From: a virus
Lineage: Duplodnaviria > Heunggongvirae > Uroviricota > Caudoviricetes
IMG/VR virus record: IMGVR_UViG_2778261176_000015
Direction: 5' to 3' (one strand)
Length of the DNA stretch: 8,534 nt
Shown here piece by piece: positions 1-8,534 of the stretch. Both the position numbers and the translations under genes were made by a program. Every line of letters starts with the position of its first letter. The stretch's first letter is position 1. The notes below the pieces were generated by a model that made no database searches, was not told the DNA's origin, and was given only the letters and a program-made list of their open reading frames with translations.

Positions 1-219
1 TCACATCCACATAATTTGCTGCCCTGACGGCAACGGGTGCGGCCTTACGGCGTGGACTTCTCCCGGCTTCACGATGTATCTCTGTACCGACTCATAGGTG
101 ATGAACGTGGCGCTGCAATTCACGTTCTGACACTGGTGATAACGCTCTTTTGTCGTGTCAGTGATATAGCGGCTTGTACGCGCATGTGCGGCATGCTGGC
201 ATAAAGGACAATGAAACAT
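1..219 (-). CDS. ogr: Ogr/Delta-family zinc-finger late-gene transcription activator (72 aa)
   Basis: Translation MFHCPLCQHAAHARTSRYITDTTKERYHQCQNVNC... carries the CxxC-N22-CxxxxC zinc-binding pattern of P2 Ogr. ATG at 217-219, TGA at 1-3. SD-like GGAAGAGG lies 8 nt upstream. The ORF track's longer 97-aa form (from 294) has no better start context, so I take the internal Met. Confidence 0.88.
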   Translation of the reverse strand: MFHCPLCQHAAHARTSRYITDTTKERYHQCQNVNCSATFITYESVQRYIVKPGEVHAVRPHPLPSGQQIMWM

Positions 220-253
220 CGCGAGCACCTCTTCCGGTTTTGTTGATAGTGCC

Positions 254-282
254 ATTTTAGTTAATTTATCCTTATAAAACAA
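254..282 (-). promoter_or_regulatory. Candidate sigma70 promoter for ogr (TTGTTT-N17-TAAAAT on minus strand)
   Basis: On the minus strand the -35-like TTGTTT (277-282) and -10 TAAAAT (254-259) are 17 nt apart, about 35 nt upstream of the ogr ATG in the D-ogr intergenic gap. Hexamer match only. Confidence 0.3.
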
Positions 283-300
283 ACAGATAAACAAAATACA

Positions 301-1464
301 TCACTCATAATCTTCTGTTTCGTACTCCACATCAGAAAGCCTGACCTCAAGCTCTAAGGACGTCGTGAAGCCGCTATTATTCAGAAAATGTGTCACCTTA
401 GTGATTGTCCAGTCCTGCTCGTCTATGACGCGCTTAAAGCCTGACACTCTGACCGGTGTTTCCGTGTAAATATCTGCACGACCGGTAGCCAGGATGATGG
501 AGAACTCCGCAACGCCCCGTTGCAGTTTATCCCACTTCGCCTGAGCGGCACGCATAGCCTGCGCTTTTGTGGCATATACCGTGGTCAGGGCAAAAACGTT
601 GTCAGCTTCACCTGCCATGTATTCACCTTCGCGCGCTTCCGGTGCTTTTGGCGCTTTCTTCTGCGTGACCGGTTTCGCTTTCGGGTGCTCCAGTGCGCGC
701 AGGTGTTTCTCTTTCTTTTTGCGTTTCAGTTTTACCTTCTGCTTTTGTGGCTTCGGGTCTTTGGTGTGAAGCCACTTTGCCGTTACGCCGGTATAGGCTC
801 CACGGTCAGCAATCGCAAAATGATGACGGTCACCGTCGCTGCGGGTGATGGTAATCTGCGGGATTTTTTTACCGCTGGCCGTCACCCCCTGCCCCGCTTT
901 GAGAAACAACAGTTTTCCCATTTTTACCGACACCTCACCGCCGTTGCGTTCTGCAAGACGGGTCAGAAATTTCGCATCAGACTCCTGCGACTGGTCGATG
1001 TGCGGGATTTTAATTCCGGCCAGTGACGGAGCGACACTGGCTTCCAGCCTGTTACGGGAGGCTATCGCCTCAACAATCGCACCGAGCGTGGTGTCATGCC
1101 ATGAGCCTTCCCGGCGGGAATTGAGCGTCCCGCGAAAATCTGCACTCCGGGCACGGATGGTGACCACATCCGGCGCGCCCCGGTGTTCAACCTCATCAAC
1201 GGTAAATTTCCCTTTGCATACCAGGGCAAAACCTTTCCAGCCGATATACACCGTCAGGACAGCGCCACGAACCGGCAGCCCGACCTGCCCGTCGGCATCG
1301 TTCAGTTCAATATCAAGCTGGTCAGCCTCAAAGCCCCGGTTATCCGTCAGGGTCATGCTCATCAGACGGTCGCTGATATTGCCGGTAATATCCCTGCTGT
1401 CGAGCATCAGCATGTAATCCGGCGTCAGCGTACTGCCTGCATCAAATGTCAGCGTATCCAGCAT
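301..1464 (-). CDS. D: Tail protein gpD (phage late control D / baseplate hub-like family), 387 aa
   Basis: 387-aa ORF at the position and length I recall for P2 gpD. Its ATG (1462-1464) overlaps the gpU stop (TAATG), indicating translational coupling. Contains a Lys-rich low-complexity linker. Confidence 0.88.
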   Translation of the reverse strand: MLDTLTFDAGSTLTPDYMLMLDSRDITGNISDRLMSMTLTDNRGFEADQLDIELNDADGQVGLPVRGAVLTVYIGWKGFALVCKGKFTVDEVEHRGAPDVVTIRARSADFRGTLNSRREGSWHDTTLGAIVEAIASRNRLEASVAPSLAGIKIPHIDQSQESDAKFLTRLAERNGGEVSVKMGKLLFLKAGQGVTASGKKIPQITITRSDGDRHHFAIADRGAYTGVTAKWLHTKDPKPQKQKVKLKRKKKEKHLRALEHPKAKPVTQKKAPKAPEAREGEYMAGEADNVFALTTVYATKAQAMRAAQAKWDKLQRGVAEFSIILATGRADIYTETPVRVSGFKRVIDEQDWTITKVTHFLNNSGFTTSLELEVRLSDVEYETEDYE

Positions 1465-1943
1465 TATCCCGCCCCCGTCATACCCGTGAATTTAGTTGCC
1501 ATACTGCCCGCCTTACCGATGAGCGATTCCGCCTGTTTACCGATATCGCCATAAAGCGCGGCCAGTGATTCATCAACGCGGGTAAGTGACAGCGTAAAAT
1601 CAATTTTCCGGGGTGTGCCGTCGGCAAAGAAAATACTCCCTGTTTCACTCACCCTGCTGATGACATACATGCCGTAAATCATGCCGGTGCCATCCAGCAA
1701 CGGCCACGCCCGGCCTTCCTCTGCCATCAGCCTGAGCGTGGTCATCGTCAGCTTTCCGCCGGTCAGTTCGGGATAAAGCACACCGGCAAGCGTGATGTTT
1801 TCCTCGCCAACGCCGAGAAACTGGTAGGCATCCCGTTTACCGATACGGGAATTTGACGGCCAGCGATAATCAGATTCACGCTGCATGGTCTGGTGTGGCA
1901 ACGTCTGGCGCATAAAAACAAACATACCTAACGCGAGCATCAT
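1464..1943 (-). CDS. U: Tail protein gpU (P2 gpU family), 159 aa
   Basis: 159-aa ORF between T and D, matching P2 gpU in position and length. Strong SD GGAGGTGA 6 nt upstream of the ATG at 1941-1943. Confidence 0.88.
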   Translation of the reverse strand: MMLALGMFVFMRQTLPHQTMQRESDYRWPSNSRIGKRDAYQFLGVGEENITLAGVLYPELTGGKLTMTTLRLMAEEGRAWPLLDGTGMIYGMYVISRVSETGSIFFADGTPRKIDFTLSLTRVDESLAALYGDIGKQAESLIGKAGSMATKFTGMTGAG

Positions 1944-1957
1944 TTTTCGTCACCTCC

Positions 1958-4405
1958 TTAACCGTCATGCATCATGCTGGCACGGGCGCGCGCACGTTTA
2001 TCCCGCTCGTATTTTTCGAGCGCATCCTGTAACTGGCGGTCAAGCTGTGTCCCCGGCGCAGTACCGCCCGTCAGGTTGATGTGATATTCGTTTTTACTCT
2101 GGTCCACATAAGAGCGACCAGCCGGTGCCGTGACCGGCTGATAAGCCTGATAGCCTGCATAAGAGCTGGTCGCCGGAATATAACCGCCGGTGCCATACGT
2201 GGCGGCATGAGTCCTTGCGGCGGTCTGGTCAAGTGTGTCTGACTCTTTGTTGATAACACCGAGTTTTTCCAGTACCCAGTCAATACCGCTGCGCAGTTTG
2301 TTGAACGCATTAAGCGGCAGCATCAGCGCGTCAGCCAGTGCCTGCCCGAACATGACGCCCGTGTCACGGCAACGGTTCAGGGTGTCCTGGGTGGCTTTAA
2401 CCGGGGCAATCAGGTTTTTAAACCACTGCCACGCGGCCTGTAACTTTTCACCCAGCCAGTCAAACAGCGGCTTAAGTGGCGTGAACAGTTCCCCCACCGG
2501 CGCAAATGCCGCTTTCAGCCCTTCAACCACACCGCCAAAGAATGCGCTGACAGGCTCCCAGTATTTACGGATAAGTAACGCTCCGGCGACAATGGCGGCC
2601 ACCACGGCCACTACCGGCCAGCTAATCGCCCCGATGGCCGTCATAACGGCACTGCCAACCGTCGTGAAAATTGCCCCCATTGCGCCTGCTGCAGCGATGA
2701 TGGCATTGATGCCGGTGATAACCGGCCAGGCTACAAGACCAATTGCACCGATGATGCCAGTAAGCGCCAGTGCGCCACCGGCAATGATGCCGATGGTTGA
2801 CGCCAGTGATTTGTTTTTCTGGATCCAGCCGTCGAGTTTTAACACATACTTTGTGGCCGTCTGCGTGAGCTTACGCAGTGCGCCTTCCTGCTGGTCAAAC
2901 AGGTCAGTCCCCACCGCCTCATAAGCGGACTGAAACTCCTTAAAGTCACCGCCTAGGTTGTCCTGCATGATATTTACCAGCTCGGCGGTCTTCCCGTCTG
3001 AGGCTTTAAACGCAGCGGTCAGTTTGTCCAGCTTTCCGGTTGAGGCGGCAGTCATCAGCACGGCGGCGGCTGAGCTGGCCTCCTCCCCGAAAATAGTTTT
3101 CATGTATTCAGCCTGCTGGGCAGTACCGAGCCGGTTTTTCTCAAAACTGGCCTGCATTTCTTTCAGAATGGTAAATACTGGCCGGGTGTTTCCCTTGCTG
3201 TCTGAGGTTTTCACACCAAGCTCTTTCAGTGCATCCCATGCTTTTCCCGTCGGTGCCTGCAGACGGCTTAACACGGCACGGCTTCCCGTCCCCGCCATTG
3301 AACCGGTAATTTTTGCATCATGCAGCGCCCCGACCATTGCGGCGGTTTCTTCAATGCTGACACCGGCATTTTTTGCCACAGGTGCGGCATAGGTCAGCGC
3401 ATCGCTCATACCGTCAAAATCGGCGGCGGTTTTGTTCATCGTCATGGAGAGAACATCCCCGATATGAGCGACCTTATCGTTTGAAAGCTGAAAGGCGGAT
3501 TTCATCCCCATCAGCAGGGCGGCGTTTTCTTCCATCGTGCGGCGGTTCGCCAGTGCCATATTCAGCGTGACCGGCGTTGCCGCCTGAATAGCCGCAACAT
3601 CTCCACCCGCTTTCGCAATGATAATCTGCGCACCGGCCGCATCATCCGCTGAGGCGGCGGTGTTGTCACCGAGCTGGCGCGCCTGCTTGCGTAGTGCAGC
3701 CATTTCGGCGGAGTCTTTTGCCACTCCGAGCACGGCCTGCAATTCTGAGTTTTTCTGCGCAAACTCATAACCGGGCATCAGCAACTTAACTCCGGTCATC
3801 GTTCCCGCCGCCGCAATCCCCACACCGGCAGCGCCTACTGAGGCCATATTTCCGGCCAGTTCCTTTCCGGCCTGATAACGCTGTTTGACTGCGTTAAGTT
3901 TTGCCTGTTGCGCACTGACACGCGCCAGCGCGTCGCGCTGACGGTTAAGCTGTGCGGTGGTTTCACTGATACGGTTTTTCAGTCCCTGCTCATCATGTGC
4001 AAGATTGCGGGTATTAATTCCCACAGCGGCCAGTTCCCGCTGCTGGCGTTTAACGGAATCCGTCAGGCGGTTATATTTCGCCTGTAAGTCCTCCGCCGCT
4101 CGCTTTGCGGATTCCAGCACTTTCGCCTGAGCACGGGTCGGACGTTCGGTGTTTTTAAACTGTGTGGCAAGGGCTTCGGCTTCCTGCCGAGCCTTTTCAA
4201 GTGCATGACCAGTCACGGCGAGCTGTGCACTGGTCTTGCGAAATCCCTCAATACGGGATGCCTGACCGTTCAGCTCGCGCAGTGATTTTTGTGTTTCCCG
4301 GATATCCCCCGACAGCGACTTACTCGCTGTGCGGATGGATTTAAACGGGCGGGATGCCTGGTCAACAGCCCTGAGCAATACCTGTAATTTTACATTGTTA
4401 CTCAT
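1958..4405 (-). CDS. T: Tail tape measure protein gpT, 815 aa
   Basis: 815-aa ORF with an Ala/Gln/Arg-rich helical N-terminal half and a long Gly/Ala/Ile-rich hydrophobic segment (about aa 533-612), typical of tape measure proteins. Its ATG (4403-4405) overlaps the E' stop (ATGAGTAA). Confidence 0.9.
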   Translation of the reverse strand: MSNNVKLQVLLRAVDQASRPFKSIRTASKSLSGDIRETQKSLRELNGQASRIEGFRKTSAQLAVTGHALEKARQEAEALATQFKNTERPTRAQAKVLESAKRAAEDLQAKYNRLTDSVKRQQRELAAVGINTRNLAHDEQGLKNRISETTAQLNRQRDALARVSAQQAKLNAVKQRYQAGKELAGNMASVGAAGVGIAAAGTMTGVKLLMPGYEFAQKNSELQAVLGVAKDSAEMAALRKQARQLGDNTAASADDAAGAQIIIAKAGGDVAAIQAATPVTLNMALANRRTMEENAALLMGMKSAFQLSNDKVAHIGDVLSMTMNKTAADFDGMSDALTYAAPVAKNAGVSIEETAAMVGALHDAKITGSMAGTGSRAVLSRLQAPTGKAWDALKELGVKTSDSKGNTRPVFTILKEMQASFEKNRLGTAQQAEYMKTIFGEEASSAAAVLMTAASTGKLDKLTAAFKASDGKTAELVNIMQDNLGGDFKEFQSAYEAVGTDLFDQQEGALRKLTQTATKYVLKLDGWIQKNKSLASTIGIIAGGALALTGIIGAIGLVAWPVITGINAIIAAAGAMGAIFTTVGSAVMTAIGAISWPVVAVVAAIVAGALLIRKYWEPVSAFFGGVVEGLKAAFAPVGELFTPLKPLFDWLGEKLQAAWQWFKNLIAPVKATQDTLNRCRDTGVMFGQALADALMLPLNAFNKLRSGIDWVLEKLGVINKESDTLDQTAARTHAATYGTGGYIPATSSYAGYQAYQPVTAPAGRSYVDQSKNEYHINLTGGTAPGTQLDRQLQDALEKYERDKRARARASMMHDG

Positions 4406-4825
4406 TCGTGTTTCCGCTTCGCCGGAGCGCCTTTTCGCGCCATGTGATGAGTTCGGTCAGGCTCATGGGATACAGTTCTGATGGCGGCCAGTGAAATATC
4501 ACAGCCACATCCGCCATCAGGTCATCGACCGAGAGATTTTTCGGAAACGTCACTGCACCGAGTTCGGCGACAAAAAACCGACCACCTTACCGGCCAGCGC
4601 CACAAGGTCAGGCAGTTCCAGCGCGGCGACTTCCTGCTCGGTCAGCATCGGTGCCGTCATGCGCGGCAGCACTTTAATCAGTGCATCGACTTCGGAGTTT
4701 GCGACCGCAGCCAGACTGACACCGCGCAGCGTCCCCGCATTGGGTTTCATCAGCGTGACCTGTTCGATAACCTGCTCACCACGTTTGACCGGATTGTCCA
4801 GGGTAATGACATTTTCTTTGTTCAT
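4398..4825 (-). CDS. E+E': Tail assembly chaperone E+E' fusion produced by programmed -1 ribosomal frameshift (predicted 142 aa)
   Basis: Slippery heptamer T_TTT_TTG at 4571-4577 (minus strand) in the E frame. After a -1 slip the reading continues as VAELGAVTFPKNLSVDDLMADVAVIFHWPPSELYPMSLTELITWREKALRRSGNTNE to TAA at 4398-4400. That gives 85 + 57 = 142 aa, matching my recollection of P2 E+E'. Confidence 0.8.
4550..4825 (-). CDS. E: Tail assembly chaperone gpE (91 aa), zero-frame product
   Basis: 91-aa ORF directly upstream of T ending ...AGKVVGFLSPNSVQ. ATG at 4823-4825, TGA at 4550-4552. Position and length match P2 gpE. Confidence 0.85.
   Translation of the reverse strand: MNKENVITLDNPVKRGEQVIEQVTLMKPNAGTLRGVSLAAVANSEVDALIKVLPRMTAPMLTEQEVAALELPDLVALAGKVVGFLSPNSVQ
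4571..4577 (-). promoter_or_regulatory. -1 programmed ribosomal frameshift slippery heptamer (TTTTTTG)
   Basis: Plus-strand caaaaaa at 4571-4577 is TTTTTTG on the coding strand, in X_XXY_YYZ register with the E frame (GGT TTT TTG), 6 codons before the E stop. Confidence 0.75.
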
Positions 4826-4853
4826 GGTTTTCTCACTTCTGAATCAGGGTTAA

Positions 4854-4874
4854 CCGGTCAGCCAGGCTGACCGG
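4854..4874 (-). promoter_or_regulatory. Perfect 10-bp GC-rich inverted repeat (CCGGTCAGCC-a-GGCTGACCGG) in the FII-E intergenic gap; candidate RNA stem-loop
   Basis: Read directly: 4854-4863 and 4865-4874 are exact reverse complements, located 8 nt after the FII stop and about 30 nt before the E start. No U-run follows on the transcript strand, so not a canonical intrinsic terminator. Confidence 0.35.
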
Positions 4875-4881
4875 ATGAAAA

Positions 4882-5400
4882 TCACAGGCCGATATTGCGG
4901 CGGTGTTGCTCCAGCCGGTCGACGCCGTTCACCTTCTCAATCATGTTGATGGTGTCGATTTCGACCAGCTCCTTACCGTCCATCGTCAGCCGGAAATAGG
5001 TGCAGACCACGGAGATTTTCGACTCGGTATCTTCTCCCTGTTTCCCCTCGCCGGTGTCGATTTCTTTCTGACGTCCACGCATGACCACCTCGACGGCCAC
5101 CGTTTCGCCGGTATCGTCGCGCTGGTAAGAGCCTGCAAAACGAATCGGTACGGCATCCACACCGGTTGCGGCGTAAAGCTCCCAGATAACCGAATCCGGG
5201 AAGCCACCGAGCGACCACTCCATTGACAGCGCATCATCATCAAGGCCGAGGTCTACCGGGGCGCTGCCGTTCATCCCCGCACCGCGATAGTTTTCGAGCT
5301 TACGGGTCAGTTTTGGTAGCGTGACGGACTTCGCGACGCCCTGATAGCTGTAGCCGTTCAGAAAGACGTTCATTAACTTGAGTTTGCGCGGCATTGCCAT
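4882..5400 (-). CDS. FII: Tail tube protein gpFII, 172 aa
   Basis: 172-aa ORF immediately downstream of FI (12-nt gap with AGGAG SD). Position and length match P2 FII. Confidence 0.9.
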   Translation of the reverse strand: MAMPRKLKLMNVFLNGYSYQGVAKSVTLPKLTRKLENYRGAGMNGSAPVDLGLDDDALSMEWSLGGFPDSVIWELYAATGVDAVPIRFAGSYQRDDTGETVAVEVVMRGRQKEIDTGEGKQGEDTESKISVVCTYFRLTMDGKELVEIDTINMIEKVNGVDRLEQHRRNIGL

Positions 5401-5412
5401 CGGTCAGGCTCC

Positions 5413-6603
5413 TTAATTGCTGTTAACCGAGGTGACCAGATTTGCCAGGTATTTATCGGTAATACGCTGGCGCAGGGTCAGGTTTTCAAGAGGAGGCACC
5501 GGGGTATAGTCGTAGTCGATATACAGTTTTCCGGCCTTGAGGGTTTCCGCATCGTTGGATTCTTCACTGAACCAGCAGGTCGCATCCACGATATAGCCGT
5601 TTGTTTTCAGCTCTCGGAATTTGGCATTAATGCCATCAACGATGTCGCGAATCAGCGTTGCGGTGATGGGCTTGTCCACCGCCCACATGTGCGCCTCAGC
5701 CATCGTGTCGGCCAGCACCTGCGCGGTGCGGGTGTAGTTTTCAAAGAGGAACAGCGGGTCATCAGAGCAGGTACGGTTACCCCAGAAGCGGAAACCGTCA
5801 CGACGAATCAGCGTTGTGACACCTGACTCGTTCAGCAGGTCAGCATCGGTGCCGGACTCCTGCAAATCCCAGAATACAGAGGCGCTGATGCCGGTAACAC
5901 CGTTTACCCCGACGTTGGACAGCGTTTTATGCCAGCCCTGCTCCTGGTCAATTCTGGCACGCAGTCCCAGCGCACGGGCGGTGGCATACGCGGTGGCGGT
6001 GGTACTCGTGACCGTATCCCATGCGAGGAAATCCGGCCAGATGACCATCAGCTCACGCTGGCTGAAATTCTGGCGGTAGGCTTTCACCTCGGAAATGGTT
6101 TTACAGCCGCATGCACTGATATACCCGAAAGCGCGCAGCTTCTGACAGACTGATGCCAGTGCAACAGCCACCTCTTTGGTGTCCAGTCCCGGCACGCCGA
6201 GAATACGCGGTTTAACACCGGTTACCGACTCCGCCGCCAGCAGGGCTTTCAGTCCGGTGTACTGACCGTTTTCGTCGGTGGTGCCGATGATATTGGAAAC
6301 GGTCTGCGCGAGTTTCGTTTCCTCGTCGTCGCCGGTGCCGTCTTCCACACGTACGACAACGGTGACCGGTTTTGACTGGTCGGCGATGGCCTGCAACGAT
6401 GCCGCCAGCGTGCCTTTTTTACCGGCCTTTGCAATTGCACTCTGCACATTGGTAATCAGCACCGGTTTATTGAGGGGGAAGGTTTCCGCATCCGCATCGC
6501 TGGCCGTGCAGACCATGCCGACAATGGCAGTGGATACGGTGGAAATGACACGGGTGCCGTCGTTAATCTCCAGCACCTGCACGCCGTGATGATAGTCACT
6601 CAT
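5413..6603 (-). CDS. FI: Contractile tail sheath protein gpFI, 396 aa
   Basis: 396-aa ORF starting MSDYHHGVQVLEI..., which I recognise as P2 FI sheath. SD GGAG 8 nt upstream of the ATG at 6601-6603. Confidence 0.9.
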   Translation of the reverse strand: MSDYHHGVQVLEINDGTRVISTVSTAIVGMVCTASDADAETFPLNKPVLITNVQSAIAKAGKKGTLAASLQAIADQSKPVTVVVRVEDGTGDDEETKLAQTVSNIIGTTDENGQYTGLKALLAAESVTGVKPRILGVPGLDTKEVAVALASVCQKLRAFGYISACGCKTISEVKAYRQNFSQRELMVIWPDFLAWDTVTSTTATAYATARALGLRARIDQEQGWHKTLSNVGVNGVTGISASVFWDLQESGTDADLLNESGVTTLIRRDGFRFWGNRTCSDDPLFLFENYTRTAQVLADTMAEAHMWAVDKPITATLIRDIVDGINAKFRELKTNGYIVDATCWFSEESNDAETLKAGKLYIDYDYTPVPPLENLTLRQRITDKYLANLVTSVNSN

Positions 6604-6662
6604 CCGTTTAACTCCGTGGTTAATGGGTGAGTGATATTTTCAGTTGTGCCGGAGATGTCAGG

Positions 6663-7256
6663 CTATTTGTCCCGGTTGGCTAAGGGATGACACAATTTAT
6701 TCTTTGTCGCTGATGAGGGGAATTTTTTATAGAGCGTGGACAGGCCAATATCAAAAATCAGCGCCACACGTTGACGAGATTCCCCCGCAGCCAGCAACCG
6801 TCCGACCTGCTCCCACTCACTCGCGGTGAGTTTCGGACGTCTGCCACCAATACGACCTTTGGCTCTGGCTGCTTCCAGTCCGGCGCGTGTCCGCTCGACA
6901 ATGAGTTCTCGTTCCATTTCAGCCAGGGCACCCATCACATGAAAGAAAAAACGCCCCATCGGCGTGCTGGTATCAATGGCATCCGTCAGGCTGCGAAAAT
7001 TAATGCCGCGTTCGCGCAGCTCCTCAACCAGAATGACCAGATGCCGCATACTACGCCCCAGCCTGTCCAGCTTCCAGACTACCAGAGTGTCACCTGCTGA
7101 TAATGTTCTGAGCATTTTTTTCAGTCCCGGTCTGTCGGACTTCGTGCCGCTGATTTTATCCTCAAAAATCCGCTCGCATCCTGCGCACTCCATCGCGTTA
7201 CGCTGCAATTCCGTGTTCTGGTCATTTGTTGACACGCGTACATAGCCAATAAGCAT
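6663..7256 (-). CDS. Serine site-specific DNA invertase, Hin/Gin/Cin/Pin (Din) family, 197 aa
   Basis: N-terminus MLIGYVRVSTNDQ with the catalytic Ser, internal DTLVVWKLDRLGRS and MGRFFFHVMGALAEMERELIVERT motifs, and a C-terminal helix-turn-helix (GLSTLYKK). Start taken at the second ATG (7254-7256), which has AGGGGGA 5 nt upstream; the first ATG at 7262 abuts the SD with no spacer. Confidence 0.9.
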   Translation of the reverse strand: MLIGYVRVSTNDQNTELQRNAMECAGCERIFEDKISGTKSDRPGLKKMLRTLSAGDTLVVWKLDRLGRSMRHLVILVEELRERGINFRSLTDAIDTSTPMGRFFFHVMGALAEMERELIVERTRAGLEAARAKGRIGGRRPKLTASEWEQVGRLLAAGESRQRVALIFDIGLSTLYKKFPSSATKNKLCHPLANRDK

Positions 7257-7283
7257 GAGCATCCCCCTGAATAAAAACCGGAG

Positions 7284-7676
7284 ATGATGCCAGTTGCCCG
7301 TTATCTCTGCATTTTCATAAACGTTGGTTTGGGAGAAGCGGCTAAAAGGAATGTAGGGACAGGTGCGAATCAGCTACCTGATATGGGTAGTTTTATGCTT
7401 TCTGCTTCAGTTCCTGGATATCAAAAATTGCCATCCGGTTTAATTATTCAATGGGGGCCAATTGATGTTCCGCTGACGTCTCAGGACACAGTAACCTATT
7501 TTCCGATTGCATTTCCGAACAGATGTCTGCGGGTATTTGCGACTCAGGATTACACTCCCGGCAGTGCAAATGTTGGCTATATAGCTTGTGCCGGTTATAA
7601 CCAGGACCCGGTGAAATTTATTTCCAGAGCAGGCGTACCCGGTATCGGTGCTTCATTTTTCGCATTAGGGTGTTAA
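7284..7676 (+). CDS. Alternate (currently silent) tail-fibre C-terminal receptor-binding cassette; ORF fragment, about 130 codons
   Basis: Translation ...[29 protein letters not shown]...[23 protein letters not shown]... resembles phage tail-fibre tip domains. It points away from the late operon, and the nominal ATG has GGAG directly abutting it with no spacer, so it is probably expressed only after inversion fuses it to the constant fibre gene at the crossover site. Confidence 0.55.
7312..7337. other. 26-bp invertase crossover site (hix/gix/cix-like): TTCTCCCAAACC-AA-CGTTTATGAAAA on the minus strand
   Basis: Imperfect 12-2-12 dyad with AAACC/GGTTT-type inner arms and an AA/TT core at 7324-7325. 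It lies 56 bp upstream of the invertase start and inside the 5' end of the silent tail-fibre ORF, encoding IFINVGLGE. Resemblance to Din-family sites is from memory. Confidence 0.6.
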
Positions 7677-7702
7677 TTTCTTTTAACTTTATGGAGTGAA
7701 AA

Positions 7703-8143
7703 ATGAATTACATATATTCCGCGACTACAAACTCTTTCTATCCCTTGGAGATGAAAGAGGATTACACGCAAGCTGACTCATGGCCAGATGATGCTGTTGA
7801 AGTTGATGAGCAAGTGTATATTGAGTTTTCCGGATTACCGCCGAAAGGAAAAATCCGTATCGCTGGAGAAAATGGTTTTCCTGCATGGTCTGAAATTCCA
7901 CCACCAACACATGAGGAACAGATTGCTGCAGCCGAACTGAAAAAGCAGCAATTGATTAATCAGGCCAACGATTATATGAACAGTAAACAATGGGCTGGTA
8001 AAGCGGCTATTGGTCGTCTGAAAGGTGAGGAACTGGCGCAATATAATTTGTGGCTGGATTATCTGGACGCACTGGAGCTGGTCGATACTTCCAGTGCGCC
8101 AGATATTGAATGGCCTACTCCTCCGGCAGTTCAGGCCAGATGA
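7703..8143 (+). CDS. Tail fibre assembly protein (Tfa family), alternate-orientation copy, 146 aa
   Basis: GGAG SD 6 nt upstream of the ATG at 7703. C-terminus ...LWLDYLDALELVDTSSAPDIEWP matches the Tfa motif I recall from e14 TfaE (VDTSTAPDIEWP). It directly follows the alternate fibre tip cassette. Confidence 0.8.
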   Translation: MNYIYSATTNSFYPLEMKEDYTQADSWPDDAVEVDEQVYIEFSGLPPKGKIRIAGENGFPAWSEIPPPTHEEQIAAAELKKQQLINQANDYMNSKQWAGKAAIGRLKGEELAQYNLWLDYLDALELVDTSSAPDIEWPTPPAVQAR

Positions 8144-8153
8144 CATCCGGCGC
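8096..8153. repeat. Imperfect inverted repeat formed by the convergent 3' ends of the two tfa genes
   Basis: GCGCCAGATATTGAATGGCCT (8096-8116, plus strand) against GCGCCGGATGTCATCTGGCCT (reverse complement of 8133-8153), about 15 of 21 identical. Both encode APD(I/V)(E/I)WP. The two genes overlap by 29 bp (8115-8143). Confidence 0.4.
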
Positions 8154-8534
8154 GGTGCTGGTATCTGTTGCCGTCACCGCGTCAATGTAATCCAGCACAG
8201 TGTTAAGTCGGGAGGTCTCTGCCTGCATCAGCTTCCGCCCAGCCTGTAATTTCAGTTGAATCAGACTAATGGAAGCCATTGCAGTGTCAATCAGTGACTG
8301 ACGCTGTGCTTCTGCCGCGTCTACTGCGGCGTGATGCTGTGCCTCAGTATCGGTCACCCATTTCTCACCATCCCATTTATCGTATGGCGTTAATGGGGCG
8401 ATAGTGGTTGTATTTTCGGGGTAATCACCCGGAGTTGTGATTTCTTTGGCGTCTCCCGTTTCGGTGTTATAGACGATTTCTCCGCGATGGTCTGGCACAT
8501 ATTCCCATGAGTTTAAATCCGCAGAGCGGCAGAT
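8115..8534 (-). CDS. Tail fibre assembly protein (Tfa family), 5'-truncated by window end
   Basis: The reading frame is open to position 8534 (ICRSADLNSWEYVPDHRGEIVYNTETGD...), so the ORF track's Met at 8498 is a GTG and not the true start. It has the W-x-x-V-x-DHRG-x-x-VY motif seen in TfaE-like proteins and ends ...DTSTAPDVIWPELPEE with TAG at 8115-8117. Confidence 0.8.
   Translation of the reverse strand: MCRSADLNSWEYVPDHRGEIVYNTETGDAKEITTPGDYPENTTTIAPLTPYDKWDGEKWVTDTEAQHHAAVDAAEAQRQSLIDTAMASISLIQLKLQAGRKLMQAETSRLNTVLDYIDAVTATDTSTAPDVIWPELPEE

What the first reader, a model, noticed from the sequence alone, without database searches (positions are those of the whole stretch)
7284..8143. 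Silent alternate cassette is markedly AT-richer than the flanking tail genes and the active tfa
Sampled 60-nt stretches in 7381-7440 and 7701-7760 count about 37-38% GC, against about 52% in the minus-strand tfa (8341-8400) and higher in the tape-measure gene. This suggests the alternate fibre tip and tfa' were acquired separately from a lower-GC source, so the two receptor-binding alternatives have different origins. Such a tip could target a different surface receptor.
Basis: seen in the sequence. Interest (0 to 1): 0.45.

Follow-up and report, generated by a model that had tools for sequence, protein, structure and literature searches.

The report
AT-rich silent tail-fibre cassette, P2-like prophage
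The AT-rich stretch is real, but it is the usual composition of swappable phage tail-fibre tip and chaperone modules: the tip currently in use is just as AT-rich, so this is an ordinary, already known invertible host-range switch in a P2-like E. coli prophage.

Summary
Observation confirmed. Window 7216-8065 is 43.8% GC against 55.0% elsewhere. No block-shuffle reached this step (0/200), and it sits at third codon positions (GC3 0.35-0.37 vs 0.63).

The region is the unexpressed half of a Mu-G-type invertible tail-fibre segment in a P2-like prophage:
- a Gin-like invertase (80% identical to Mu Gin);
- a 26-bp crossover site (7312-7337);
- a gp53-like fibre-tip segment (to 7676);
- its Tfa chaperone (7703-8143);
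- the converging chaperone gene of the active cassette, which runs off the window.

In five related E. coli prophages (92-99% identical across the switch), the active tip and the chaperone's first 70 codons lie beyond the window end. They are equally or more AT-rich (GC3 0.29-0.40). P2 H/G, the Mu G segment, and Klebsiella and Erwinia P2-like phages show the same dip.

The silent cassette is 98.5-99.3% identical to E. coli K-12 yfdL-yfdK (CPS-53) and to a Mu-like coliphage, with homology starting inside the crossover site. All named close homologues but one mislabelled entry are Escherichia. Modular exchange is supported; a lower-GC donor is not. Ordinary and already known.

The parts
6663..7256 (-). 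Din-family serine DNA invertase (Gin/Pin/Cin/Hin type), 197 aa. An alternative in-frame ATG lies at 7262.
   Evidence: Pfam Resolvase + HTH_7. 80% identical to Mu Gin over 181 aa, including the VRVSTNDQ catalytic-serine motif. PDB Gin 3uj3, E = 5e-94. phrog_125 DNA invertase.
7312..7337 (.). 26-bp crossover site TTTTCATAAACG-TT-GGTTTGGGAGAA, with central dinucleotide at 7324-7325. The inner half encodes G-L-G-E of the fibre.
   Evidence: 17/26 match to Mu gix, with the same AAAC..NN..GGTTT core. The inverted partner lies inside gene H in the 99%-identical L001 (27 nt, 81% complementary, 1872 nt apart). Half-sites are exchanged exactly at the TT between L001 and L008.
7326..7676 (+). Silent 3' gene segment for the alternative fibre tip B (116 codons plus stop; gp53-like C-terminal domain). 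It has no start codon of its own. The ATG at 7284 lies upstream of the crossover site.
   Evidence: Pfam Gp53-like_C, E = 1.3e-18. It is in the same codon phase as the site in H. In-silico inversion gives a 392-aa H that is 388/392 identical to the annotated H of E. coli strain 736. 98% identical to the YfdL-type fibre of phage 720R4.
7703..8143 (+). tfa' (= yfdK type), the cognate tail-fibre assembly chaperone of tip B, 146 aa. The first ~99 codons are AT-rich (42% GC); the last ~47 codons are 51% GC.
   Evidence: Pfam Caudo_TAP, E = 2.3e-38. phrog_188. 100% identical at protein level in phage 720R4. Annotated yfdK in K-12. GC values.
8115..8534 (-). The last 139 codons of the active cassette's chaperone tfa (tfaE type; 200 aa in relatives). 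The gene runs off the window end and overlaps tfa' by 29 nt. It is 52% GC.
   Evidence: Pfam Caudo_TAP. The full-length 603-nt gene is at L001 8516-9118. phrog_105.
7216..8065 (.). The low-GC tract itself (43.8% GC). It comprises the invertase 5' end and intergenic region, the crossover site, tip B, and the N-terminal two-thirds of tfa'.
   Evidence: Likelihood change-point scan and block-shuffle control.

Best explanation
WHAT IT IS
- Window 7284-8143 is the currently unexpressed half of a Mu-G-segment-type invertible tail-fibre switch. It sits in a P2-like (Peduovirus) prophage of E. coli.
- A Gin-like serine invertase (6663-7256, minus strand) recombines a 26-bp site at 7312-7337 with an inverted partner inside tail-fibre gene H, which lies beyond the window end.
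- Inversion detaches the present tip from the constant 280-aa H shaft. It joins the shaft in frame, at the motif LGLGE, to the gp53-like tip encoded at 7326-7676.
- Inversion also places the matching chaperone tfa' (7703-8143) downstream in the late operon.

WHY IT IS AT-RICH
- The composition is not a mark of the silent state, nor of a special donor. It is the shared compositional signature of the hypervariable receptor-binding tip plus the adjoining variable N-terminal part of the Tfa chaperone.
- These modules move between P2-, Mu-, P1- and lambda-like enterobacterial phages, and the crossover site serves as one module joint.
- GC returns to ~52% in the middle of the segment, where the two converging chaperone genes meet. 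That stretch covers tfa's last ~130 codons and tfa''s last ~47, including the conserved C-terminal Tfa domains.

SHOWN VERSUS INFERRED
- Shown: the anatomy, the in-phase fusion, natural genomes in both orientations, the equal AT-richness of the active cassette in relatives, and near-identity to CPS-53 and a Mu-like phage.
- Inferred: Fis/enhancer dependence, the actual switching rate in this strain, the receptor of each tip, and the ultimate cause of the AT bias.
For: ANATOMY
- The ORFs and domains fit the model: Resolvase+HTH_7, Gp53-like_C and two Caudo_TAP.
- The invertase is 80% identical to Mu Gin.
- The crossover site and its partner are identified.
- The site is in the same codon phase in H and in the silent segment.
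- The backbone is 96.7% identical to P2 from D to FI.

SWITCHING
- E. coli strain 736 carries a closely related prophage (backbone 97.3% identical) with the segment flipped. Its H is 388/392 identical to the in-silico inversion product.
- Half-sites are exchanged exactly at the central TT.
- Among 5426 E. coli genomes, 619 hold an invertase|gp53-type-tip junction and 346 an H-shaft|gp53-type-tip junction.
- Inversion in P2-like prophages of EPEC has been shown experimentally (PMC4272514).

COMPOSITION
- L001 sub-regions (GC / GC3): tip A .453/.291; tfaA first 70 codons .410/.286; tfaA remainder .524/.527; tfaB last 47 codons .521/.438; tfaB first 99 codons .428/.384; tip B .462/.360; FI .560/.668.
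- Four further relatives give active-tip GC3 of 0.29-0.38.
- The distal 800 nt of P2 H are .42-.46 GC against .54-.57 proximally. P2 G's first 80 codons are .358. The Mu G segment is .425-.472 against a .54-.555 baseplate.
- Tip/chaperone versus backbone in other phages: Klebsiella .45-.49 vs .55; Erwinia ENT90 .40-.46 vs .60-.65; Ralstonia .58 vs .64.
- The same cassette in the ON orientation in Mu-like phage 720R4 is .42-.45 GC against a .575 backbone.

MODULARITY
- Homology to 720R4 and to K-12 CPS-53 starts at 7319, inside the site.
- The tip is fused at LGLGE to at least six different shafts.
- Cassette A also shows partial 91.6% matches to HK97/HK106 stf-tfa.
- The division of Tfa into a variable fibre-binding N-domain and a conserved trimerising C-domain is stated in PMC9608196, citing North et al. 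2019.
Against: - The partner site, the H shaft and the active tip are not in the window. They are inferred from relatives that are 92-99% identical over the shared 1.9 kb. This genome could carry another tip A variant, although all five examined are AT-rich.
- Within the homologous Caudo_TAP region, the active tfa really is GC-richer (52%) than tfa' (about 42%).
- The junction counts include related gp53-type tips that share the first ~65 nt. They are not counts of this exact cassette.
- The cause of the AT bias in tip modules was not determined.
Confidence: 0.9

Rival explanations
1. The silent cassette alone was imported from a phage of a lower-GC host. It therefore differs in composition and origin from the active cassette and the tail genes.
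For: - There is a real GC step at the cassette.
- The cassette is demonstrably a foreign module relative to the P2 backbone. P2 itself has fun(Z) at this position, and its homology to the window stops at 6683.
- tfa' is AT-richer than the visible part of tfa.
Against: - The active tip and the first 70 codons of the active tfa are equally or more AT-rich in all five relatives.
- The closest homologues down to ~67% identity are Escherichia wherever a name is given.
- Across species representatives, only E. coli and one Enterobacter were found.
- The same dip occurs in P2, Mu, Klebsiella and Erwinia phages.
- In Ralstonia phages the homologous tip is 58% GC, so tip GC shifts with the carrier rather than pointing to one fixed low-GC donor.
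Confidence: 0.06
2. The low GC reflects decay. As a silent, unselected copy, the cassette accumulates AT-biased mutations and is drifting towards a pseudogene.
For: - It is unexpressed in this orientation.
- K-12 CPS-53 holds a decayed version of such a segment, with a truncated tfa and no invertase.
Against: - Both reading frames are intact and in phase with the H shaft.
- The cassette is 99% identical to copies that are in the expressed orientation in strain 736 and in phage 720R4.
- The expressed cassette is just as AT-rich.
Confidence: 0.02
3. The low GC is a by-product of amino-acid composition of beta-rich fibre tips (Asn, Ser, Thr, Gly, Ile, Tyr), not of history or mutation bias.
For: Fibre tips do have unusual amino-acid composition.
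Against: GC1 and GC2 of tip B (0.52, 0.48) and tip A (0.53, 0.53) are not below the tail genes (GC1 0.54-0.67, GC2 0.37-0.46). The whole deficit is at GC3: 0.29-0.37 against 0.63.
Confidence: 0.02

Closest known systems
Phage Mu G segment (Gin; S/U and S'/U')
   Same: - The invertase is 80% identical to Gin.
- Both use 26-bp sites with the AAAC..NN..GGTTT core.
- Both have a constant fibre N-terminus outside the segment and two alternative C-termini inside, each followed by its own Tfa chaperone.
- The chaperone genes converge, and the invertase gene lies just outside the segment on the fibre-gene strand.
- The segment is AT-richer than the baseplate genes.
   Different: - The carrier is a P2-type phage, not Mu.
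- The segment is ~1.9 kb against Mu's 3 kb.
- The tips are much shorter (116 and 164 aa against ~320-335 aa) and belong to other families (gp53-like and Collar).
- The site matches gix at only 17/26.
E. coli K-12 cryptic prophage CPS-53 (KpLE1) genes yfdL-yfdK-tfaS
   Same: The silent cassette is 98.5% identical at DNA level over window 7319-8405. The gene order is the same: tip, tfa', converging tfa.
   Different: - In K-12 the tip is fused to a different, short shaft (211 aa YfdL).
- The converging tfa is truncated.
- There is no adjacent invertase, so it is a frozen remnant.
P2-like prophages with invertible fibre segments (EPEC E2348/69 prophages; Peduovirus magyaro from E. coli O157:H43 T22)
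   Same: The backbone, invertase position (between FI and the fibre genes) and segment architecture are the same. Inversion has been shown experimentally in EPEC (PMC4272514).
   Different: The tip and the N-terminus of tfa' differ. The L006 match breaks between 7386 and 7837.
Phage P2 H-G tail fibre genes (evidence for horizontal transfer of fibre genes; Haggard-Ljungquist et al. 1992, cited from memory and from the reference list of PMC13100340)
   Same: The tail backbone is 96.7% identical. There is the same GC fall in the distal fibre and in the chaperone N-terminus.
   Different: P2 has a single tip, no invertase, and fun(Z) in place of the invertase and the second cassette.

Membership tests
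Din-family invertase switch of phage tail-fibre genes (Mu G / P1 C / e14 P type) | Small serine recombinase with an N-terminal catalytic domain (active-site Ser about residue 9) and a C-terminal HTH, encoded next to the segment. | tested here: met
   Pfam Resolvase + HTH_7. 80% identity to Gin, including MLIGYVRVSTNDQ. PDB Gin, E = 5e-94.
Din-family invertase switch of phage tail-fibre genes (Mu G / P1 C / e14 P type) | Two 26-bp crossover sites in inverted orientation flanking the segment, with an identical central dinucleotide. | tested here: met
   One site is in the window (7312-7337). The partner is outside the window but present in L001, L015, L016, L017, L006 and L012, all with central TT. 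For this very genome the partner could not be read.
Din-family invertase switch of phage tail-fibre genes (Mu G / P1 C / e14 P type) | A constant fibre N-terminus outside the segment and alternative C-termini inside it, in the same codon phase at the site. | tested here: met
   The site has codon phase 1 in both H and the silent segment. In-silico inversion yields an open 392-aa H.
Din-family invertase switch of phage tail-fibre genes (Mu G / P1 C / e14 P type) | Each alternative tip is followed by its own Tfa chaperone gene, and the two chaperone genes converge. | tested here: met
   Two Caudo_TAP genes converge, overlapping at 8115-8143.
Din-family invertase switch of phage tail-fibre genes (Mu G / P1 C / e14 P type) | Both orientations occur in nature. 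| tested here: met
   L001 vs L008. Junction counts are 619 vs 346 genomes. Switching within this strain was not tested.
Din-family invertase switch of phage tail-fibre genes (Mu G / P1 C / e14 P type) | A Fis-bound recombinational enhancer within the 5' part of the invertase gene. | not testable with these tools
   Only DNA similarity of the invertase gene to gin is available (72% over 545 nt). Fis binding cannot be assessed from sequence.
Genomic segment imported from a lower-GC donor lineage | Composition departs from the surrounding backbone. | tested here: met
   43.8% vs 55.0% GC; GC3 0.35-0.37 vs 0.63.
Genomic segment imported from a lower-GC donor lineage | Composition departs from the functionally equivalent resident copy (the active cassette). 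| tested here: not met
   The active tip and tfa N-part have GC3 0.29-0.40 in five relatives. The silent-vs-active difference has z = 1.67, in the opposite direction.
Genomic segment imported from a lower-GC donor lineage | The nearest homologues lie in lower-GC taxa. | tested here: not met
   Close homologues that carry a name are Escherichia. The GTDB scan found E. coli plus one Enterobacter. Phage homologues are mostly Enterobacterales phages, with a few from Ralstonia, Vibrio and Aeromonas phages.

The most novel reading that the evidence does not exclude
Receptor-binding tip and chaperone N-domain modules of enterobacterial myo- and siphoviruses may form a distinct shared gene pool with its own low-GC3 equilibrium. 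In the E. coli, Klebsiella and Erwinia carriers examined it lies about 6-20 GC points below the backbone. It would be actively maintained rather than a leftover of history, for example by AT-biased hypermutation or diversification, by recombination-driven turnover, or by selection for H-NS-type silencing in lysogens. The crossover half-site GGTTTGGGAGAA would serve as a universal docking joint between shafts and tips.
Probability: 0.12. Interest if true: 0.4.

Novelty: already known. Interest (0 to 1): 0.12.

Why it matters
There is little new biology here. Invertible tail-fibre switches in Mu, P1, e14 and P2-like prophages are textbook. This exact cassette is already in RefSeq hundreds of times, including E. 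coli K-12 yfdL-yfdK.

Three points are practically useful:
1. A GC step at a fibre tip should not be read as evidence for a specific low-GC donor. It is generic to tip and chaperone modules, whether silent or active.
2. Truncated windows can create false 'silent vs active' contrasts.
3. The free-standing 'gp53-like domain-containing protein' CDS annotated in many genomes is a promoterless 3' gene segment. Its first 14 codons are not fibre sequence.

Tried and rejected
- An AlphaFold2 monomer model of tip B was built from a 23-sequence alignment and gave mean pLDDT 40.4. It was too poor for a fold search, so no receptor class could be inferred from structure.
- Sequence and profile searches of the PDB gave only weak hints: gp92 short tail fibre 9zd7 (E = 4e-6), 4mtm (E = 1e-5) and R1/R2 pyocin fibres (E = 1e-3). 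An LPS-type receptor is therefore only a guess.
- The GTDB species-representative scan with tip B returned just three loci and no distant taxa.
- The 1992 P2 H/G paper (PMC206541) is not held, so it could not be checked for a statement on G+C. Two literature searches failed on term length.
- The promoter/terminator scan gave nothing above shuffle expectation for promoters.
- Pseudogene decay and amino-acid composition were considered as causes of the AT bias and rejected (see rivals).

Full report
1. THE OBSERVATION

A sliding profile and a two-boundary likelihood scan put one coherent low-GC tract at 7216-8065. It is 43.8% GC against 55.0% for the rest of the window.

In a coarser-grid rerun, the log-likelihood gain was 19.0 nats (19.5). 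None of 200 shuffles of 30-nt blocks reached it; their mean was 5.2 and maximum 11.8.

The deficit is at third codon positions. GC3 is 0.354 in the tip and 0.374 in the first 99 codons of tfa', against 0.628 in the pooled tail genes (z = -5.8 and -5.1). GC1 and GC2 are not lowered.

2. WHAT THE REGION IS

The window is the tail-gene block of a P2-like prophage on the minus strand: ogr, D, U, T, E/E', FII, FI. It is 96.7% identical to phage P2 from 255 to 6683. Where P2 has fun(Z) and the end of G, this element carries the following parts.

- **Invertase.** A 197-aa serine invertase at 6663-7256 on the minus strand. It has Resolvase + HTH_7 domains. It is 80% identical to Mu Gin, including the catalytic-serine motif, and matches PDB Gin 3uj3 with E = 5e-94.
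- **Crossover site.** At 7312-7337 lies TTTTCATAAACG-TT-GGTTTGGGAGAA. It matches Mu gix at 17 of 26 positions, with the same AAAC..NN..GGTTT core.
- **Tip B.** From the site, an open frame runs to 7676 and ends in a Gp53-like_C domain.
- **tfa'.** A Caudo_TAP chaperone gene follows at 7703-8143.
- **tfa.** A second Caudo_TAP gene converges on the minus strand from 8115. It overlaps tfa' by 29 nt and runs off the window.

The closest relative found is the E. coli CUPF09 prophage, L001. It is 99.0% identical over 6600-8534 and 97.6% over the whole window. It shows the rest of the segment:
- the converging tfa is 200 aa;
- upstream of it lies gene H (444 aa);
- the inverted partner site sits inside H at the motif LGLGE, 1872 nt from the first site.

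Both sites are in the same codon phase. Inverting L001 in silico at the central TT gives a 392-aa H. That product is 388/392 identical to the annotated H of E. coli strain 736 (L008), which carries a closely related prophage (backbone 97.3% identical) with the segment flipped.

The half-sites behave as expected for a serine invertase. Outer halves stay with the invertase side (TTTTCATAAACG) or the shaft side (TTCTCGCATACC). The inner half GGTTTGGGAGAA stays with each tip.

Among 5426 complete E. coli genomes, an invertase|gp53-type-tip junction is found in 619 and an H-shaft|gp53-type-tip junction in 346. These counts include related gp53-type tips. Inversion in P2-like prophages has been demonstrated experimentally in EPEC (PMC4272514).

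This is therefore a Mu-G-type host-range switch, and 7284-8143 is its currently unexpressed half. The ATG at 7284 lies upstream of the crossover site. The free-standing 'gp53-like' CDS in RefSeq annotations is an artefact of ORF calling.

3. WHY IT IS AT-RICH, AND WHETHER THAT IS SPECIAL TO THE SILENT CASSETTE

It is not. L001 was split into equivalent sub-regions:

| Sub-region | GC | GC3 |
|---|---|---|
| H shaft | .521 | .570 |
| Active tip A | .453 | .291 |
| Active tfa, first 70 codons | .410 | .286 |
| Active tfa, remainder | .524 | .527 |
| tfa', last 47 codons | .521 | .438 |
| tfa', first 99 codons | .428 | .384 |
| Silent tip B | .462 | .360 |
| FI (backbone) | .560 | .668 |

The pattern runs low-high-low across the segment. 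The GC-normal island is where the two chaperone genes converge. The variable part of the active cassette has, if anything, lower GC3 than the silent one (0.289 vs 0.363, z = 1.67). Four further relatives, with three different tip A variants among them, give active-tip GC3 of 0.29-0.38.

That is about 180 nt before this gene turns AT-rich and about 580 nt before tip A.

One fairness point. Within the homologous Caudo_TAP region, the active tfa is truly GC-richer than tfa'. The local contrast is therefore real, but it does not extend to the whole cassettes.

The same dip is general:
- The distal 800 nt of P2 H are 42-46% GC against 54-57% proximally. The first 80 codons of P2 G are 36% against 50% for its C-terminus.
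- The Mu G segment is 42.5-47% GC against 54-55.5% for baseplate genes.
- A Klebsiella P2-like phage shows 45-49% against 55%, with the same central island.
- Erwinia ENT90 shows 40-46% against 60-65%.
- A Ralstonia phage shows 58% against 64%.
- Where this very cassette sits in the ON orientation, in Mu-like coliphage vB_EcoM-720R4, it is 42-45% GC against a 57.5% backbone.

The pattern broadly follows the known Tfa architecture. The variable N-domain binds the fibre tip, and the conserved helical C-domain trimerises (PMC9608196, citing North et al. 2019). In the active tfa, however, the 52% GC stretch also covers its Caudo_TAP N-region.

4. ORIGIN

The cassette is a mobile module.
- It is 99.3% identical to 720R4 over window 7319-8534.
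- It is 98.5% identical to K-12 CPS-53 yfdL-yfdK-tfaS over 7319-8405. In both, homology begins inside the crossover site.
- An alignment of protein homologues shows the same tip joined at LGLGE to at least six unrelated shafts.
- Cassette A is mosaic too, with 91.6% partial matches to HK97/HK106 stf-tfa.
- The two cassettes are non-orthologous. The tips are Collar vs Gp53-like_C. The chaperones are phrog_105 vs phrog_188, alignable only over the last 72 aa at 38%.

'Different origins' and 'probably different receptors' are therefore reasonable, and that is the point of such switches.

Nothing points to a lower-GC donor.
- Of the best 120 of 1012 protein hits, every entry with a source name is labelled Escherichia, apart from one Staphylococcus-labelled entry that is presumably contamination.
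- A scan of one genome per species found only E. coli, plus one Enterobacter at 52%.
- Phage-collection homologues are mostly from E. coli, Klebsiella, Shigella, Cronobacter and Erwinia phages, with a few from Ralstonia, Vibrio and Aeromonas phages.

P2-like prophages carry this cassette and close variants, and so do Mu-like phages and CPS-53.

5. RECEPTOR CLASS

This attempt gave no usable result. An AF2 monomer model of tip B was unusable (pLDDT 40). Sequence and profile searches of the PDB gave weak matches to a short tail fibre (9zd7), to the gp53-like structure 4mtm, and to R1/R2 pyocin fibre tips. Tip A matches the collar region of T4 gp37 and a short tail fibre. An LPS-type receptor for tip B is a guess only.

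6. VERDICT

The GC step is real. The mechanism is a known invertase-driven tail-fibre switch, and the cassette is already known (K-12 yfdL/yfdK). AT-richness is generic to fibre-tip modules rather than diagnostic of a separate low-GC acquisition of the silent copy. The cause of that generic bias remains open. Candidates are a shared pan-phage module pool, mutation bias under rapid turnover, or selection. Interest is low.

Noticed in passing
L006 (KC618326, Peduovirus magyaro) about 4709-4750: The invertase-proximal crossover site is preceded by an extra half-site: TTTTCATAAACG-ggtc-TTCTCGCATACC-TT-GGTTTGGGAGAA. An H-shaft-type outer half sits next to the invertase-type outer half. It looks like the footprint of an earlier recombination that imported a tip together with a shaft-side half-site.
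   Followed up: no
window 7276-7295, minus strand: A weak terminator-like hairpin (6 pairs, then a T-run) lies between the crossover site and the invertase start codon. It could limit read-through from the late fibre operon, across the antisense silent cassette, into the invertase gene.
   Followed up: no
window 7284-7325: The ORF that RefSeq annotates as a free-standing 'gp53-like domain-containing protein' starts at an ATG upstream of the crossover site. Its first 14 codons ([14 protein letters not shown]) are not fibre sequence, and a GGAG abuts the ATG with no spacing. It is probably an annotation artefact repeated in hundreds of genomes.
   Followed up: partly
L007 (E. coli K-12) 3705-5069: K-12 CPS-53 yfdL-yfdK plus a truncated converging tfa (291 nt) is a frozen remnant of the same kind of invertible segment. 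It has a different short shaft and no invertase nearby. Next to it lies a very AT-rich (25-34% GC) O-antigen-modification block, yfdG/H/I.
   Followed up: partly
window 6684-7262 compared with P2 (L003 1676-3572): P2 homology to the window ends at 6683. The invertase plus the second cassette occupy the slot between the fibre genes and FI where P2 carries the lysogenic-conversion gene fun(Z). This slot seems to be a cargo hot spot.
   Followed up: no
window 201-400: A second, shorter GC dip (37.5% GC) lies between ogr and gene D.
   Followed up: no
L002 (ON470603, phage vB_EcoM-720R4) record start: The deposited linear genome of this Mu-like phage begins in the middle of the invertible segment: the converging tfa is cut at base 1 of the record. 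This may be an assembly break caused by a mixed-orientation population.
   Followed up: no
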